Sequence record: OR192075.1
Direction: 5' to 3' (one strand)
DNA: 64,000 bases
DNA from: Escherichia phage MIZ6
The position numbers and the translations under genes are program-made. Positions 17,196-23,497 of the stretch are shown here, in pieces. How positions within the stretch are numbered: position 1 is the stretch's first letter; each line of letters opens with the position of its first letter. A model generated the notes under the pieces. It was not told the origin of the DNA. It saw only the letters and a program-made list of their open reading frames with translations, and searched no databases.

Positions 17196-19439
17196 TTACA
17201 GCTTGCAAGATGAGCACTCGCTAGAGTCTTCCGTACCATCTGCACCGTCGCGAACGTTCGCATAATACAGGGTTTTCAGACCGTAATATTGAGCAAACAA
17301 CATATCATCTAAAACATCAGCAATATCGACTTTACCCGTCTTATAAGTGCTTGGATCGTAGGATGTGTTGGAACTAATCGCCTGATCTACAAACTTCTGC
17401 ATGATCGCTGCCAGTGTCAGATAAGGCTTGTTACCTTTCTTGATCAGTGTCCAAAGCAGGTCAATAACATCAGCATTATTCTCTACGTTCGGAATAACCT
17501 GATTAAATTGCCCTTCTTTCGATCCTTTAACCGATACAATACCGCGAGGCGGTTCAATACCGTTTGTGCTGTTAGATACCTGAGAAGACGACTCACAAGG
17601 CATCAGAGCCGAAAGCGTACTGTTACGAATGCCATATTTTTTCAGGTCTTCGCGCAGTTCTTCCCAATCCATCTCATATACCGGATCAACCAGTTCATCT
17701 ACTGTCTTTTTGTACCAGTCGATAGGCAGTTCACCGCGACCATAACGTGTTTCGTGCATCAGTTCGCAAGCACCCTTCTCTTTAGCCAGTTGCACACTAG
17801 CCTTAATCAGAGCATATTGCAAGCGTTCAAACGTTTTATGCGTAAACTCGTTAGCGTCTTCATATGTGAAGAAATTATCCGCGAGATACGATGCAAAGTT
17901 AGTCACCCCAACACCCAGAGAGCGACGTTTTTTGGCTGTCAGAGCTTGCTCTACAGGATAATCCTGGTAATCTAACAGGTTGTCAAGTGCACGCACCATA
18001 ACCATAGCAATGCGTTCTACTTCTTCCATATTTTCGATATCAAAGTTTCCTAAAACATATGCTGCCAAAGTACATAGGCTGATCTCTGAATCATCACGAC
18101 CCATCGGTTTTGTAGGCAGAGCAATTTCACAACACAGGTTGGATTGTTTAATCGGTGCTACATTACGAATAAACGCCCCGTGATTGTTCATGTTGTCTGT
18201 GAACGTTGGGTAGATTCGACCAGTGTTAAAACGTTCAATTGCCACCGCTAAAAACAGGTCTTCGGCTTTAACACGAGTTTTACGAACACTCGGATCTTTT
18301 TCCAGTTTTTCGTAAAGCTGGCGGAAACCTTCCTCATCTCGGAAGTATAGATCCCACAACAAGCCACCTGCAACATCTGGACTAAACAGAGTAATGTAAT
18401 CCCGTTTAAGGAATCGCTCTACCATCAGGTTATTAATCTGTACGCCGTAATCAAGATGACGAATGCGGTTATCTTCCACCCCCTTATTGTTCTTTAACAC
18501 AATCAGACTTTCAAACTCTAAATGCCACATTGGGTAATAGAGAGTCGCCGCCCCGCCACGAATACCGCCTTGTGAGCATGACTTAACGGCAGTCTGAAAA
18601 TGTTTCCAGAATGGGATAACGCCAGTATGACGAACTTCACCATGCCCGATCTTAGATCCTTCCGCGCGAATCATGCCAGCGTTGATACCGATACCAGCAC
18701 GCTTGCTAATATACTTGATGATTGCATTTGCTGTTTCGTTGATGCCCTGCAATGAGTCATCACTTTCAATCACCACACACGAACTAAATTGGCGTGTTGG
18801 GGTACGCACACCTGCCATAATCGGAGTAGGCAGAGAGATTTGCTTATTCGCAACAGCATTATAAAAATCAATCACATGTTCAAGTCGATTTTCGGTCTCT
18901 TCTTGATGCAAGCACATACCGATCAGCATATACGCAAATTGCGGTGTTTCGATGATTTTCTTAGTGCTGCGATCCTGAACAAGATATTTCTCTTTTAACT
19001 GCATCGCACCAGCATAGGTCATTTTAAAATCAAGTTTATGGTCGATGAATTTCTCCAGATATTCCACTTCTTCACGGGAATACTTTTGCAGAATTTCGCG
19101 ATCATATTTTCCGATTGCAATATTACGCTCAATATGGCTATAAAAATCAATAGGTTGGAATTGACCGTATACTGATTTACGAAGCGCGAACATTGCAAGG
19201 TTACTTGCTACATATTGATAATCGGGTGTTTCTACCGTGATGTTATCTGCGGCGACCTTAATCAATACTTTCTGGATATCATTGGTAGACATACCTTCTG
19301 TCAGAAGTGGTTCAACCATATCAAACAATTCATATGGATCAACGTTATGACCTTCGGCTGCCGCTTCCAGAATTTTCATTACTTTTTCTTTTTCAAACGG
19401 AACAGTCAGACCGGAAGACTTAACAACATTTTTAATCAT
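17196..19439 (-). CDS. nrdA: ribonucleotide reductase alpha subunit
   Basis: 747 aa, class Ia NrdA-like with C-terminal Cys pair (SSECSSCKL). Confidence 0.92.
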   Translation of the reverse strand: MIKNVVKSSGLTVPFEKEKVMKILEAAAEGHNVDPYELFDMVEPLLTEGMSTNDIQKVLIKVAADNITVETPDYQYVASNLAMFALRKSVYGQFQPIDFYSHIERNIAIGKYDREILQKYSREEVEYLEKFIDHKLDFKMTYAGAMQLKEKYLVQDRSTKKIIETPQFAYMLIGMCLHQEETENRLEHVIDFYNAVANKQISLPTPIMAGVRTPTRQFSSCVVIESDDSLQGINETANAIIKYISKRAGIGINAGMIRAEGSKIGHGEVRHTGVIPFWKHFQTAVKSCSQGGIRGGAATLYYPMWHLEFESLIVLKNNKGVEDNRIRHLDYGVQINNLMVERFLKRDYITLFSPDVAGGLLWDLYFRDEEGFRQLYEKLEKDPSVRKTRVKAEDLFLAVAIERFNTGRIYPTFTDNMNNHGAFIRNVAPIKQSNLCCEIALPTKPMGRDDSEISLCTLAAYVLGNFDIENMEEVERIAMVMVRALDNLLDYQDYPVEQALTAKKRRSLGVGVTNFASYLADNFFTYEDANEFTHKTFERLQYALIKASVQLAKEKGACELMHETRYGRGELPIDWYKKTVDELVDPVYEMDWEELREDLKKYGIRNSTLSALMPCESSSQVSNSTNGIEPPRGIVSVKGSKEGQFNQVIPNVENNADVIDLLWTLIKKGNKPYLTLAAIMQKFVDQAISSNTSYDPSTYKTGKVDIADVLDDMLFAQYYGLKTLYYANVRDGADGTEDSSECSSCKL

Positions 19440-19507
19440 ATTACCTCACTTCATATTTTAGCAGGAACAAGTTTATCCTCCATATTGGGGGCTTTCGCCC
19501 CCTTTGT

Positions 19508-20740
19508 TTATACTGCCATTTGAGCGGTGATCGCTGGATGGCTTTGATAGTTGTGAATTTTAAAGTCTTTCGGAGTCTTTGTCAATACCTCATCTAAAGA
19601 TTTAAATTCCGGCAACTCAATTGTTGGTTTATCAAACGGAACACGGCTTAACTGTTCCATAACTTGATCAAAGTGGTTTTTGTAAATGTGAGTATCTCCA
19701 CCAGAGAAAATCAGTTCTCCTACCTCAAGATCACACATTTTCGCTATGATGTGAGTTAACAGCGCATAGCTGGCAACATTAAAGGGCAAGCCCAAAAAGC
19801 TGTCTACGCTTCGCTGAAACCACATACAAGACAGTTTACCTTCATTGACGTAGAATTGCACGAAAGGATGACATACACCCAATACAGCATTATGTGTTCC
19901 TTGTACGTTCCATGAGTCAATGATGATACGTCGATCCGTTGGATTGTTTTTAATTTGTTCAATCACGTTTTGTAACTGGTCTTCCCAAATCTTCGGGCGA
20001 TAGACATATTCTTCATCGTCTTTAGTGCTCGATGTGTCTACGTCCATACTAGCAAAGATCGTGGTATCTGGTGCTAAAATATCCCCACCCAGATAATCAC
20101 TATCAAGTAGATAACCGAAATAACCATCATCTACCCATTCCTGGAATCCCCACAAGCAATATGCATCATTAACAAAATTAGATTGAGTCTTCCAGTGATC
20201 TGCTACTAAGAATTGATTATATTCAGAATCAAACTCTTCATAACGCATACCACGCCAGATAGCACATAAACGGTCTTCTGTGTCGTTGGTTGGCGTAAAG
20301 TCTTCTACCCACGGGTGTTTAAATGTATGTGTATATTTGCTCTTAACGCGCTTAATTTTGATTTCACCGTGTGGATGAATCGGTTTGCGTCGCCATGCCA
20401 TACCATACATATTGCCGACATTATAACCATTGAATCGCAAAGGATTCTTTTCTTTCATATCAAGACAGTTGCCGCGCCAAATGTCGAAGGCTTCTTCGTC
20501 AAACTTTCCGCGTGTAATTTCCTGTAAGCGACGGCGGTCAAGTGATCCCTCCATAAACCATAGCAATTCGCCAATTACAGAGGCTGTAGCCATCTTTTTA
20601 GTGGTCAGTAACGGAAACCCCTTGCTTAAGTCAATTCGCATCTCTGCGCCGAATTTAGAGAGCGTACCTACCCCCGTTCGGTCTTCACGAGGCCAACCGT
20701 TATCAAGAACATCACGCAATAGTTTCAAATATTCTTTCAT
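19508..20740 (-). CDS. td: thymidylate synthase with large internal insertion
   Basis: ThyA motifs (DRTGVGT, catalytic CH in VCHPF, LGLPFNVASYALL) plus an extra ~125 residues after YGMAWRR. Confidence 0.85.
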   Translation of the reverse strand: MKEYLKLLRDVLDNGWPREDRTGVGTLSKFGAEMRIDLSKGFPLLTTKKMATASVIGELLWFMEGSLDRRRLQEITRGKFDEEAFDIWRGNCLDMKEKNPLRFNGYNVGNMYGMAWRRKPIHPHGEIKIKRVKSKYTHTFKHPWVEDFTPTNDTEDRLCAIWRGMRYEEFDSEYNQFLVADHWKTQSNFVNDAYCLWGFQEWVDDGYFGYLLDSDYLGGDILAPDTTIFASMDVDTSSTKDDEEYVYRPKIWEDQLQNVIEQIKNNPTDRRIIIDSWNVQGTHNAVLGVCHPFVQFYVNEGKLSCMWFQRSVDSFLGLPFNVASYALLTHIIAKMCDLEVGELIFSGGDTHIYKNHFDQVMEQLSRVPFDKPTIELPEFKSLDEVLTKTPKDFKIHNYQSHPAITAQMAV

Positions 20741-20981
20741 CCCACATCACCTTTTTCTTGTTGATTGCTTTCTTACGCAGTTTTGCTACTGTCTCGTCAA
20801 TATCGATAAAGACAACGCCACGGTCGAATACAGTAGCAGGTCTTGAGATATCGCTATTTTCTTGCACAGGAAGCCATGATGCGCTCGCTTCATCATAGAG
20901 ATATTGTAAACCGTAATAATCTACGGCTACTGCGTAGTTTTCACTGGTAGCCGTCCATAATTGAATAATACCGACTTTCAT
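20712..20981 (-). CDS. hypothetical protein
   Basis: ATG at 20981 overlapping upstream stop as TAATG. Confidence 0.45.
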   Translation of the reverse strand: MKVGIIQLWTATSENYAVAVDYYGLQYLYDEASASWLPVQENSDISRPATVFDRGVVFIDIDETVAKLRKKAINKKKVMWDERIFETIA

Positions 20982-21073
20982 TATTGTTCCCGTCCGCAAT
21001 GTAAGCACCGACTACCAGCAAACATTAAAGATTCACCACAATGTTTGCACTCATAATCTGTCAGAATTTTCAT
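20981..21073 (-). CDS. zinc-ribbon miniprotein (30 aa)
   Basis: hand-translated MKILTDYECKHCGESLMFAGSRCLHCGREQ; RBS GAAGG; TAATG coupling. Confidence 0.4.
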   Translation of the reverse strand: MKILTDYECKHCGESLMFAGSRCLHCGREQ

Positions 21074-21074
21074 G

Positions 21075-21644
21075 TTACGCCTTCTTACGTTCTAAAATTT
21101 GTTCGCTGATCAGGTAATTATCAAGGAAGTAATTATGTTCTTCTTTGGTTACAAAGTCAAAATATAATTCCTGAATCATTTCCTTAGAGATACCAACATC
21201 ATATTCAAATGGATCGTTGATCCCTGAACGTTGAACATACGTTAACACAATACGGTCCGCAAAGTCAACCGCTTTTTCAATCAGGGAAGGTCCGCCGATA
21301 ACACTTACCAAACCTTGCGTTTTCTCTAGGGCTTTTAACAGATCCTTCAATTCAATTCCAGTATACACATCAGGTTGGTCGCCATTTTTAGCTTTCGGTT
21401 CTGGCTTGCTGGTATCGGTGCTAATAACCACATTCAAACGTCCCCAAAGTGCTTTAGGCAGACTTTCAAAGGTATTACGTCCCATTACTACCGCAGCAAA
21501 ATCAACCTCGCCAATAGTGCGGATTTTAAAGTTTTCCATATCTTTTTTGATTGGACGCCCCCACGGTAAACCGCCTTTAAAACCAAAAGCCCAATTTTCA
21601 TCCGACATTTTAGTGTCACCAATCGCAAATACACATTGAATCAT
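21075..21644 (-). CDS. frd: dihydrofolate reductase
   Basis: aligns to T4 Frd (GLPWGR, VMGRNTF, VIGGP); RBS AGGAGA. Confidence 0.88.
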   Translation of the reverse strand: MIQCVFAIGDTKMSDENWAFGFKGGLPWGRPIKKDMENFKIRTIGEVDFAAVVMGRNTFESLPKALWGRLNVVISTDTSKPEPKAKNGDQPDVYTGIELKDLLKALEKTQGLVSVIGGPSLIEKAVDFADRIVLTYVQRSGINDPFEYDVGISKEMIQELYFDFVTKEEHNYFLDNYLISEQILERKKA

Positions 21645-22492: not shown

Positions 22493-23461
22493 TTACATCC
22501 CTAACAGAGCGTCAAGATCATCCAGATCAGAAGCGGAGGAAGTACCGCCACCCAGGTCCAGAGATGCCATCAGGTCATCAGCGGAAGAATCTAACGCCGT
22601 GCTAGCTGCGTTAATACCAACTACAGTGCTAGCTGCGGTAGTACCAGCGTCGAATGCATTCATCTGTGCGTCAAAATCATCAAGCTGGCTGTTAATCGCT
22701 GCCGCAGCACTGGAAGCCGCAGCACCAGCTACCATAGAAACGCCCATAGTTTTCTTAAATTTGGTTTCCAGTTCATCGAACGGTTTAAACTGGCTAGGCG
22801 CTACAATCTCACTCAGATCAACCATGTTTTCCATCAGATATTTCTGATATGCTTCGTCTTCAATTTTCGGAAGCTGTGATTGCTGCATGAAACGAGAATC
22901 ATCATAGTTCTGGTGTTTATCAACCTTCTTAGCTTTCAGGAGGAAGTTAGCACCGGAGAACACACAAGTTACATCTACCGGAACTTCGCCCATGTCGGTA
23001 TTCACGTTCACCATTGCAACGATCTTATCATAAATTTTCTGACCGAAGCGGAATTTGAATACCTTACCTTCATTTTCTGGTGCTTGAGGATCTTTCAGTA
23101 CCAGAATGTTTGCGTAGTAAGACGCTTTACGCTTAATCAGTTGCCATTCGGTTTTATCGGTATTGTATAGGTCTTTTTCGTTAATATATTTGCACACAGG
23201 GCAAGAATCAAAATCACCGTGGGTGCTGGAGCAGTTTTCCCAATACCATTTACCATTAACTTTGAAGGAATGGTTTACCAGTTTCACAATCGGCAGACCG
23301 TCTTCTGTCTTAGACGGCAGGAAGCGAATCAGGGCTTCACCGTTACCTGCTGCATCAGTCTTAATCTTCCACTCTTTCGGATCTTCTTTGGAGAAACCGT
23401 TGCCACCTTTCAGTGCGGCCAGTTGAGCTTGCAGTTTGGAAGAATCTTGGCGTTTAAACAT
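22493..23461 (-). CDS. 32: single-stranded DNA-binding protein (T4 gp32-like)
   Basis: near-colinear match to T4 gp32 (LPSK, CSSTHGD.DSCPVC zinc site, acidic C-terminus). Confidence 0.93.
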
Positions 23462-23497
23462 ATTCACTATTCCTTCTTTTGATTAATTTACTAGACT

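What the first reader, a model, noticed from the sequence alone, without database searches (positions are those of the whole stretch)
19508..20740. Thymidylate synthase carrying a very large internal insertion
The ORF is 410 aa with all ThyA catalytic motifs, but about 125 extra residues (roughly nt 20000..20390, after YGMAWRR) sit at the site where some ThyA proteins carry a small-domain insert; the next ThyA block is KIWEDQLQNVIEQIKNNP. The reading frame is continuous and there is no intein-like boundary. Adjacent frd supports a true dTMP synthase.
Basis: partly seen in the sequence, partly recalled or inferred. Interest (0 to 1): 0.55.

Follow-up and report, generated by a model that had tools for sequence, protein, structure and literature searches.

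The report
Endonuclease relic inside phage thymidylate synthase
The phage's thymidylate synthase carries, in frame in a surface loop, a folded 126-residue leftover of a homing-endonuclease-like (IPA-HNH) domain, the worn-down end of a widespread and apparently undescribed class of phage ThyA genes invaded at one site without any intron or intein.

Summary
The minus-strand ORF 19508..20740 encodes a 410-aa ThyA with the dUMP-binding and catalytic residues conserved. The loop between YGxxWR and DQ is 136 residues long, against 5 in T4, 10 in E. coli and 18 in human. The window is a Krischvirus (RB49-like) genome, and all 58 Krischvirus records carry the insert.

The insert is not an intein, an intron or an artefact. 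It is a trimmed homologue of the N-terminal putative-HNH domain of IPA-HNH homing endonuclease genes (Barth et al. 2023; ICP1 gp209). Longer ThyA inserts at the same site match PHROG "HNH endonuclease" families at E = 4e-32. At least 90 diverse ThyA proteins (373-613 aa) carry the module there.

Its distribution is patchy. One ThyA pair is 90% identical in the core, with and without a roughly 250-aa cassette.

The Krischvirus copy has lost the flanking sub-domains and nearly all signature residues of the family. It is acidic (net charge -13). It is still confidently predicted to fold (pLDDT about 94) and remains under weak purifying selection (dN/dS 0.14-0.43, against 0.01-0.05 for the core).

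Best reading: a decayed relic of a mobile element, translated as part of an active enzyme. No nuclease activity has been shown for any member of the family.

The parts
19508..20740 (-). td gene: 410-aa thymidylate synthase (ThyA) containing the insert; stop codon at 19508-19510
   Evidence: ORF list; Pfam PF00303 284 bits; PDB ThyA matches at E = 1e-68; 97-100% identical to td of RB49-like phages
20390..20740 (-). ThyA N-terminal core segment, residues 1-117, ending in the YGMAWR motif
   Evidence: Aligns to E. coli ThyA 1-99; R21, E58 and Y112 conserved
19982..20389 (-). In-frame insert, residues 118-253 (136-aa loop; net +126 aa relative to E. coli)
   Evidence: Alignment with PDB-verified TS sequences; AF2 pLDDT 82-98 across the insert; insert-only model pLDDT 93.7; dN/dS 0.14-0.43
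20351..20386 (-). N-terminal strand of the predicted two-stranded beta-ribbon stalk, residues 119-130 (KPIHPHGEIKIK)
   Evidence: DSSP on AF2 models; the P..PHG boundary motif is conserved in all long ThyAs
20048..20278 (-). Core homologous to the IPA-HNH N-terminal (putative HNH) domain, residues 155-231: helix RLCAIWRGM..., ...HWKTQSNFVNDAYCLWGFQEWVD..., hairpin LLDSDY...APDTTIF
   Evidence: hhalign of the short-insert clade against the free-standing family: 96.7%, E = 3.5e-10; tblastn to jumbo-phage ThyA inserts at E = 2e-12; signature residues lost
19982..20008 (-). C-terminal strand of the stalk, residues 245-253 (EYVYRPKIW + E), leading back into ThyA at DQL
   Evidence: DSSP on AF2 models; the Y(V/Y)RP(K/I)I(W/Y) boundary motif is conserved in long ThyAs
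19511..19981 (-). ThyA C-terminal core segment, residues 254-410, with catalytic C290 and the dUMP-binding residues
   Evidence: Aligns to E. coli ThyA 110-264; catalytic residues mapped
21075..21644 (-). frd, dihydrofolate reductase (genomic context)
   Evidence: Pfam DHFR_1, E = 1.2e-20; annotated Frd in phage Phi1
17196..19439 (-). nrdA, ribonucleotide reductase large subunit (genomic context)
   Evidence: ORF list; annotated NrdA in Phi1, JK32 and phiS

Best explanation
The td gene encodes a working thymidylate synthase. The surface loop between YGxxWR and DQ (E. coli residues 100-109) carries the decayed remnant of a homing-endonuclease-like module of the IPA-HNH family. The remnant is translated in frame and is not spliced out.

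Inferred history: a complete module (N-terminal beta region, putative-HNH core with the LDKD...YSPDTC.F...N signature, and a C-terminal NUMOD/HTH-like tail) entered a phage ThyA gene at this permissive loop. The loop lies between two highly conserved coding motifs, which would suit a homing site. The module has since been gained, lost and exchanged among phage ThyA genes.

In the lineage leading to Krischvirus both flanking sub-domains were deleted. The polar signature residues were replaced and the domain became acidic, so it can probably neither cut nor bind DNA any longer. What remains is a compact folded domain held away from the enzyme on a two-stranded beta-ribbon. It persists because precise excision is improbable and an unfolded or badly truncated insert would damage an important enzyme, which would explain the weak purifying selection.

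Shown here: the homology, the common insertion site, the patchy distribution, the decay gradient, the predicted fold and the selection pattern. Inferred: that the module was mobile by homing, that the long forms may still be active, and that the enzyme is active with the insert in place.
For: Identity of the insert:
- Longer inserts at the same ThyA site (UE-S1 517 aa, Vibrio D181 477 aa) match PHROG 'HNH endonuclease' families 2081, 953 and 374 at E = 4e-32, 7e-25 and 8e-21.
- The window insert is 34% identical to these inserts (E = 2e-12).
- The short-insert clade profile matches the free-standing family directly: hhalign 96.7%, E = 3.5e-10.
- The free-standing family includes ICP1 GP209, a founding IPA-HNH gene (PMC10448857). 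gp209 scores 146.6 bits against the family profile and 36.8 bits (E = 2e-13) against a profile built only from ThyA inserts.

A class with one common site:
- 90 of 123 retrieved ThyA-like proteins of at least 370 aa carry the module between E. coli positions of about 100 and 108. Boundary motifs are conserved.

Mobility:
- Insert-bearers are not monophyletic: Fitch parsimony needs at least 38 changes across 266 sequences.
- For 40 of 91 insert-bearers, the nearest core neighbour lacks the insert.
- P0107 (552 aa) and P0139 (299 aa) are 90% identical in the core. They lie in collinear phage contigs, where an 850-nt cassette replaces 92 nt.
- Some inserts are more similar than their host cores, and insert identity is nearly uncorrelated with core identity (rho = 0.12).

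Decay in the window:
- Family signature residues are 96-100% conserved in free-standing proteins, 70-92% in long inserts and 12-36% in short inserts. The window has lost R, Y, K, Y, S, C and N but keeps the hydrophobic core.
- Net charge is -13, against a family median of +9.
- The N- and C-terminal sub-domains are absent.

Translated and folded:
- pLDDT 95.3 and pTM 0.93 for the full-length model; 93.7 for the insert alone.
- dN/dS is 0.14-0.43 in the insert and 0.01-0.05 in the core.
- The insert is fixed in 58 of 58 Krischvirus records.
- ThyA catalytic residues are intact.
Against: - The family has Lys where canonical HNH enzymes have the catalytic His (LDKD). There is no Pfam HNH hit and no significant Foldseek PDB hit.
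- The core tree is a crude NJ tree on a sample biased towards the query. Patchiness could partly reflect recombination of whole td segments rather than homing.
- Within Krischvirus there is no presence/absence polymorphism, so nothing shows mobility of this particular copy.
- The short form has been retained down to about 61% core identity (P0049), with 28 invariant insert columns across the clade. That could mean the relic has acquired a function rather than being a mere passenger.
- Enzyme activity of the insert-bearing TS is inferred, not measured.
Confidence: 0.72

Rival explanations
1. Exapted accessory domain. The insert derives from an endonuclease-like module but now has a function within thymidylate synthase, for example docking into the phage dNTP-synthesising complex, regulating the enzyme, or countering a host factor. 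On this view it is kept by positive selection for that role. This is compatible with the origin proposed above and differs only on present function.
For: The short form is stably retained across a clade down to about 61% core identity (P0005, P0088, P0089, P0049), with 28 invariant columns including DAYCLWG.QE.VD and APDT.IF. dN/dS is below 1. The high pTM (0.93) suggests a fixed orientation relative to the core. The strong acidity (-13) is a derived and distinctive property.
Against: The conserved residues are mostly hydrophobic or structural, while the polar signature residues are lost. Nonsynonymous change is about ten times faster than in the core, and a 4-aa indel occurs within the genus. 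T4 and most phage ThyAs work without any such domain. No partner or activity can be proposed from the sequence.
Confidence: 0.2
2. An ancient ThyA-specific domain inherited vertically and lost many times. On this view the module was never mobile, and the free-standing IPA-HNH proteins are merely distant relatives of it or derived from it.
For: The insertion site and boundary motifs are the same in all 90 cases. For most pairs insert identity is below core identity.
Against: It requires dozens of precise losses: at least 38 changes by Fitch parsimony, and 90%-identical cores with and without the insert. Insert identity is nearly uncorrelated with core identity, and 112 pairs have inserts more similar than their cores. 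The free-standing family is far larger (2,721 places in 1,624 phage records) and shows classic homing-endonuclease genomic behaviour according to PMC10448857.
Confidence: 0.1
3. The insert is removed before the mature enzyme forms. It would be either a mini-intein (protein splicing) or an intron that happens to be open in frame (RNA splicing), as with the T4 td group I intron.
For: T4 td famously carries a group I intron, and about 130-150 aa is a typical mini-intein size. The ShiLan element (PMC11855218) shows that in-frame-readable insertions can hide other elements.
Against: No Rfam family matched at E <= 1 across 19300-21100. No intein or Hint Pfam hit was found. The boundaries are ...PHG and YRPKIW|EDQ, with no N-terminal Cys/Ser and no C-terminal His-Asn plus Cys/Ser/Thr. 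The homology to IPA-HNH is in the ThyA reading frame. No alternative-frame ORF longer than 41 aa lies in the insert on the coding strand. Codon-level purifying selection is present. AF2 predicts the insert as an integral domain whose stalk strands continue the ThyA chain.
Confidence: 0.02

Closest known systems
IPA-HNH homing endonuclease genes (ICP1-like phage AP2-associated HNH; Barth et al. 2023, PMC10448857), e.g. ICP1 gp59, gp115-116 and gp209
   Same: The insert core is homologous to their N-terminal putative-HNH domain. They share the motif architecture LY..W..M..R / W..F..F / LDKD...YSPDTC.F...N. Like other homing endonuclease genes, they associate with conserved nucleotide-metabolism and replication genes.
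   Different: IPA-HNH genes are free-standing ORFs with a C-terminal AP2 domain. Here the domain is embedded in frame inside ThyA and has no AP2 domain. In the window it has also lost the signature residues and the flanking sub-domains.
ShiLan domain and related 'hidden HNH' insertions in actinophage DNA methylases (Arsenault, Gosselin and Gogarten 2025, PMC11855218)
   Same: An insertion in a conserved phage gene that reads through in frame, shows no intein or intron features, has a disjunct distribution suggesting homing, and is predicted to loop out of the host protein.
   Different: In ShiLan the HNH is encoded in a different reading frame, and the in-frame translation is poorly structured with no recognisable domain. 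Here the endonuclease-like domain is itself in the host frame and is predicted to fold with high confidence as part of the host protein. The host gene also differs: an essential-pathway enzyme (ThyA) rather than a dispensable methylase.
T4 td group I intron encoding I-TevI (also I-BmoI in Bacillus thyA)
   Same: The same host gene family (td/thyA), invaded by a homing-endonuclease-bearing element in T4-type phages.
   Different: Those are self-splicing RNA introns with GIY-YIG endonucleases at a different position in the gene. Here there is no intron signal, the family is HNH-like, and the sequence stays in the protein.
Inteins carrying in-frame HNH endonuclease domains
   Same: An endonuclease domain translated in frame within a host protein, at a conserved site.
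   Different: Inteins have Hint splicing domains and the boundaries Cys/Ser ... His-Asn-Cys/Ser/Thr, and they excise themselves. None of these features is present here.
Genes in pieces created by free-standing endonuclease insertion (Aeromonas phage Aeh1 nrdA split by mobE; established literature, from my own knowledge)
   Same: An HNH-type element inserted inside a nucleotide-metabolism gene of a T4-type phage without any splicing, with the host enzyme retaining function.
   Different: In that case the host gene is broken into two ORFs whose products reassemble. Here the reading frame is continuous and a single polypeptide is made.
Lineage-specific inserts in the variable region of ThyA (L. 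casei 50-aa small-domain insert; 8-12-aa eukaryotic inserts)
   Same: Extra residues tolerated on the ThyA surface around the YGxxWR motif. The human insert occupies the same loop.
   Different: Those inserts are short, are not homologous to any independent protein family and are not patchily distributed. The L. casei insert is at a different position, upstream of YGxxWR.

Membership tests
Thymidylate synthase ThyA (PF00303, EC 2.1.1.45) | Sequence match to the family model above the curated threshold, across the whole fold | tested here: met
   284 bits against a cut-off of 24.3; the two stretches together cover the model. PDB ThyA matches at E = 1e-68.
Thymidylate synthase ThyA (PF00303, EC 2.1.1.45) | Catalytic Cys (E. 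coli C146) and the dUMP/folate-site residues R21, E58, Y94, R126', R127', R166, S167, D169, N177, H207, Y209 | tested here: met
   All are conserved: R21, E58, Y112, R270, R271, C290, R310, S311, D313, N321, H351, Y353.
Thymidylate synthase ThyA (PF00303, EC 2.1.1.45) | dTMP synthase activity and obligate homodimer | not testable with these tools
   Needs an enzyme assay or thyA complementation. Only a monomer was modelled.
IPA-HNH domain family (Barth et al. 2023) | Significant profile-level homology to the N-terminal domain of the founding members and their relatives | tested here: met
   hhalign 96.7%, E = 3.5e-10. ICP1 gp209 scores 36.8 bits, E = 2e-13, against the ThyA-insert-only profile. 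Long inserts match PHROG 2081 at 4e-32.
IPA-HNH domain family (Barth et al. 2023) | Family signature residues (R, Y, LDKD, YS..C.F, N; at least 96% conserved in free-standing members) | tested here: not met
   The window has E, gap, LDSD, LA..T.F and D at these positions. Short inserts as a group retain them in only 12-36% of cases.
IPA-HNH domain family (Barth et al. 2023) | C-terminal AP2 DNA-binding domain and free-standing gene organisation | tested here: not met
   There is no AP2 hit in the window protein or in any ThyA insert. The domain is embedded in td.
Canonical HNH / His-Me finger nucleases | Beta-beta-alpha-metal fold | tested here: inconclusive
Canonical HNH / His-Me finger nucleases | Catalytic His on the first strand and a metal-ligand Asn/His on the helix; Pfam HNH model match | tested here: not met
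   No Pfam HNH hit for the window insert, the long inserts or 77 free-standing members. The family has K (LDKD) and the window has S at the position that corresponds, by my reading of the motif, to the catalytic His. The conserved N is D in the window.
Intein | Hint-domain blocks; N-terminal Cys/Ser; C-terminal His-Asn followed by Cys/Ser/Thr | tested here: not met
   No Pfam intein or Hint hit. The insert begins ...RKPIHPHG and ends ...YRPKIWE before DQL.
Group I or group II intron | Match to an intron covariance model; no codon-level constraint | tested here: not met
   No Rfam match at E <= 1. dN/dS is well below 1 and the frame is open for 136 codons.
Active homing element (mobile endonuclease gene) | Presence/absence polymorphism at one site among close relatives | tested here: inconclusive
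   Met for the class as a whole (P0107/P0139 at 90% core identity; 40 of 91 nearest neighbours lack the insert). Not met for the window's own lineage, where the insert is fixed in 58 of 58 Krischvirus records.
Active homing element (mobile endonuclease gene) | Site-specific cleavage of the insert-less allele and gene conversion | not testable with these tools
   Requires in vitro cleavage assays and mixed-infection crosses.

The most novel reading that the evidence does not exclude
The full-length versions of this module, in jumbo phages and many uncultured phages, may be active homing elements using a strategy distinct from introns, inteins and free-standing endonuclease genes. On this reading the endonuclease is simply expressed as an extra folded domain of the host enzyme, inserted in a permissive surface loop between two conserved coding motifs, so no splicing of any kind is needed. 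The ThyA-endonuclease chimera would cut insert-less thyA alleles in co-infecting phages. The Krischvirus td in this window would then be the fossil end-state of that life cycle.
Probability: 0.35. Interest if true: 0.85.

Novelty: new variant of a known kind. Interest (0 to 1): 0.62.

Why it matters
Homing endonuclease genes are thought to survive inside essential genes only by hiding in self-splicing introns or inteins, or by sitting between genes. Here an endonuclease-like domain sits in frame in a core metabolic enzyme with no splicing apparatus. It is found at one site in at least 90 diverse phage ThyA lineages, and every stage from full-length module to trimmed relic is represented. If the long forms are active, this would be a fourth way for such elements to persist. 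It would also offer a natural series for studying how a selfish insertion is tolerated, decays and possibly becomes domesticated as a new protein domain.

It also has practical value. It marks a ThyA surface loop that tolerates inserts of 120-275 residues, which is useful for protein engineering. It explains recurrent misannotation of these genes as "HNH endonuclease" or "hypothetical protein". For the window itself the biology is modest: an RB49-type td with a probably inert passenger domain.

Tried and rejected
- Group I intron open in frame: the Rfam E-value scan of 19300-21100 found nothing.
- Intein or mini-intein: no Hint or intein Pfam hits and no splice-junction residues.
- Hidden endonuclease in another frame, as in ShiLan: a six-frame HMM scan of the whole window hit only the td frame. 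Alternative ORFs in the insert are at most 41 aa on the coding strand.
- Sequencing artefact: rejected, because 58 independent genomes carry the insert.
- Direct Pfam, NCBIfam and PDB-sequence identification of the insert core: nothing found. Only the AP2 tail of the free-standing relatives hits plant AP2/ERF structures.
- Foldseek against the PDB with the insert model: no significant hit. The afdb50 library was unavailable.
- Free-standing paralogue of the module in this window as a donor: none found.
- A split ThyA-like gene in L011 as evidence of a 'genes in pieces' arrangement: set aside, because a run of N lies in the gap.
- P0106 as a bacterial host of the insert: the contig is phage-like (T4 Rnl1 and Rnl2, DHFR) and was binned into a MAG.
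- The original RB49 genome paper (PMC135041) is not held in the library. Literature searches found no description of the ThyA insert. A ThyA/ThyX evolution paper does not mention insertions. The actinophage 'thymidylate synthase' inteins are assigned to InterPro IPR003669, which to my knowledge is ThyX, not ThyA.
Full report
**1. The observation.** The window encodes, on the minus strand at 19508..20740, a 410-aa ORF that matches Pfam Thymidylat_synt at 284 bits, but in two stretches. Against solved structures, residues 1-82 and 254-410 align to E. coli ThyA 1-82 and 110-264.

In their alignment, the loop between the conserved YGxxWR and DQ motifs is 5 residues in T4, 10 in E. coli, 10 in L. 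casei, 18 in human and 136 in the window. The insert is therefore residues 118-253 (nt 19982..20389), a net gain of 126 residues over E. coli.

The loop concerned is the one that holds the short eukaryotic insert.

The dUMP-binding and catalytic residues are conserved. The two folate-site tryptophans, W80 and W83, were not reliably aligned; in the alignment W88 is the invariant tryptophan of the IW motif. The gene lies in the T4-type order gp32 ... frd - small ORF - td - nrdA.

**2. Provenance.** The protein is 97-100% identical to td of RB49-like phages (genus Krischvirus). All 58 such records carry the insert, at 91-100% identity within it, and some have a 4-residue deletion. It is therefore real, fixed in the genus and long deposited, but annotated only as "thymidylate synthase" or "hypothetical protein".

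**3. What the insert is not.**
- An Rfam E-value scan of 19300-21100 found no RNA family.
- There is no intein or Hint hit, and no Cys/Ser ... His-Asn-Cys/Ser/Thr junction.
- No other reading frame in the insert holds a sizeable ORF or a family match.
- GC content does not stand out from the flanking sequence.

**4. What the insert is.** A tblastn search with the insert alone found, outside Krischvirus, the thymidylate synthases of about 358-kb jumbo phages (UE-S1, KP13-7, phiKp_21; 517 aa; 34% identity, E = 2e-12). It also found a 477-aa ThyA of 187-kb Vibrio phages that is misannotated as "HNH endonuclease". These carry longer inserts at the same position.

The longer inserts match PHROG families annotated "HNH endonuclease" at E = 4e-32, 7e-25 and 8e-21. 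The Krischvirus insert on its own only reaches E = 0.2.

A profile search of 5.8 billion proteins returned more insert-bearing ThyAs. It also returned many free-standing phage proteins of 190-315 aa with this layout:
- an N-terminal beta-rich region;
- a conserved core (LY..W..M..RCY ... VC..W..F.NF ... QLDKD ... YSPDTC.F ... N);
- a C-terminal AP2 domain in 14 of the 77 aligned sequences; 2 of 77 hit Pfam's I-HmuI NUMOD-like domain.

A profile of the short Krischvirus-clade inserts matches a profile of the free-standing proteins directly (hhalign 96.7%, E = 3.5e-10).

This free-standing family is the "IPA-HNH" class of putative homing endonuclease genes described by Barth et al. 2023 (PMC10448857). 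A family member hits ICP1 "GP209". gp209 scores 146.6 bits against the family profile and 36.8 bits (E = 2e-13) against a profile made only from ThyA inserts. The family occurs at 2,721 places in 1,624 phage records.

**5. Structure.** AlphaFold2 with a 134-sequence alignment gives mean pLDDT 95.3 and pTM 0.93 for the whole protein, with the insert at 82-98. The insert alone gives 93.7. It forms a long two-stranded beta-ribbon (residues 119-130 and 245-253) that carries a small helical domain plus a beta-hairpin.

**6. A class, not a curiosity.** An exhaustive phmmer search of 1.84 billion cluster representatives, combined with the earlier hits, yielded 123 ThyA-like proteins of at least 370 aa. 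Ninety of them carry the module between E. coli-equivalent positions of about 100 and 108. Most of the remaining 33 are N-terminal fusions, probably DHFR-TS. Insert sizes run from about 110 to 276 residues. The boundaries are stereotyped: WR..P..PHG before the insert and Y(V/Y)RP(K/I)I(Y/W).DQL after it. Every context examined is a phage contig.

**7. Evidence for gain and loss.**
- On an NJ tree of cores with the insert removed, insert-bearers are scattered; Fitch parsimony needs at least 38 changes across 266 sequences.
- For 40 of the 91 insert-bearers, the nearest core neighbour in the sample lacks the insert.
- The clearest pair is P0107 (552 aa) and P0139 (299 aa), at 90% core identity, with only the loop replaced. 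Their phage contigs are collinear at 77-81% DNA identity, and an 850-nt cassette replaces 92 nt.
- Insert identity is almost uncorrelated with core identity (rho = 0.12), and in 112 pairs the inserts are more alike than the enzyme cores.

These patterns are what a mobile element would produce. The tree is crude and the sample is biased towards the query, so I treat mobility as well supported for the class but not proven.

**8. The window's copy is a relic.**
- Relative to the long inserts it lacks the N-terminal beta region and the C-terminal HTH-like tail.
- Family signature residues are 96-100% conserved in free-standing proteins, 70-92% in long ThyA inserts and 12-36% in short ones. The window has replaced R, Y, K, Y, S, C and N while keeping the hydrophobic core W, W, F, L, T and F.
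- Its net charge is -13, against a family median of +9.
- Within Krischvirus, dN/dS is 0.14-0.43 for the insert and 0.01-0.05 for the core (the counts are small).
- The window holds no free-standing paralogue of the module.
- The short architecture is shared by relatives down to about 61% core identity, with 28 invariant columns. The trimming is therefore old and the remnant is stably kept.

**9. Mechanistic reading.** The td product is most likely an active ThyA with an extra, folded, acidic domain displayed on a stalk. The domain descends from an IPA-HNH-type module that entered this loop. The loop is permissive and is flanked by two conserved coding motifs, which would suit a homing site. 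The domain is now probably inert as a nuclease or DNA binder. It is retained because precise deletion is unlikely and misfolding would be costly. An acquired function cannot be excluded (rival 1). Whether the full-length modules elsewhere are active homing elements that need no splicing is the open and interesting question.

**10. Comparison and novelty.** The closest described cases are these:
- the free-standing IPA-HNH genes, which are homologous but not embedded;
- the ShiLan "hidden HNH" insertions in actinophage methylases, which also read through in frame, but with the HNH in another frame and the in-frame product disordered (PMC11855218);
- the T4 td intron with I-TevI, which has the same host gene but relies on RNA splicing;
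- HNH-bearing inteins;
- genes split by endonuclease insertion.

I found no paper describing the ThyA insert. The search covers open-access literature only, and the RB49 genome paper was not available. I therefore rate the finding as a new variant of a known kind. It is modest for this window's own biology and more interesting for the class it reveals.

Noticed in passing
L011:3450-5152 (ENA ERZ15609937 NODE_1756): A divergent ThyA-like gene appears split at the same site. A 128-aa N-terminal ORF is followed, after a 164-nt gap, by P0020, which is the IPA-HNH-like module fused to the C-terminal ThyA-like half. A run of 10 N lies in the gap, so the split may be a scaffolding artefact. If it is real, it would be a 'genes in pieces' form of the same invasion.
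   Followed up: partly
Proteins P0285, P0344, P0308, P0329 (also the insert-less P0282, P0313, P0341): Several long ThyAs have a second extra segment of about 40-55 residues between E. coli ThyA positions of about 156 and 157. This is independent of the main insertion site, and its nature is unknown.
   Followed up: no
L001:3638-5071 (Vibrio phage D181); td in records of phages Whisky, Cognac, Brandy, pEJ01, phiKp_21: Public annotation errors caused by the insert. A 477-aa ThyA is labelled 'HNH endonuclease', and several insert-bearing td genes are labelled 'hypothetical protein'.
   Followed up: yes
window 20712..21008 (-): A 98-aa ORF between frd and td overlaps the td start by 29 nt. It is annotated as a conserved hypothetical protein in Krischvirus records and has no Pfam hit.
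   Followed up: partly
window 22493..23467 (-): A 324-aa ORF in the position of T4 gene 32 (single-stranded DNA-binding protein), with an unusually Ala/Ser/Asp-rich C-terminal tail. It was identified only by position and my own reading of the sequence, not by any search.
   Followed up: no
Protein P0102 (613 aa, JGI metagenome): Besides the module at the usual site, this ThyA has an N-terminal extension of about 100 residues with no Pfam hit. This could reflect a miscalled start or an additional fusion.
   Followed up: no
Free-standing family (alignment A7) and ICP1 gp209 (L013:1414-2046): The whole IPA-HNH family conserves Leu-Asp-Lys-Asp where canonical HNH enzymes have the catalytic His. 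Either the chemistry is unusual or these 'homing endonucleases' are DNA-binding proteins without nuclease activity. I found no experimental test.
   Followed up: partly
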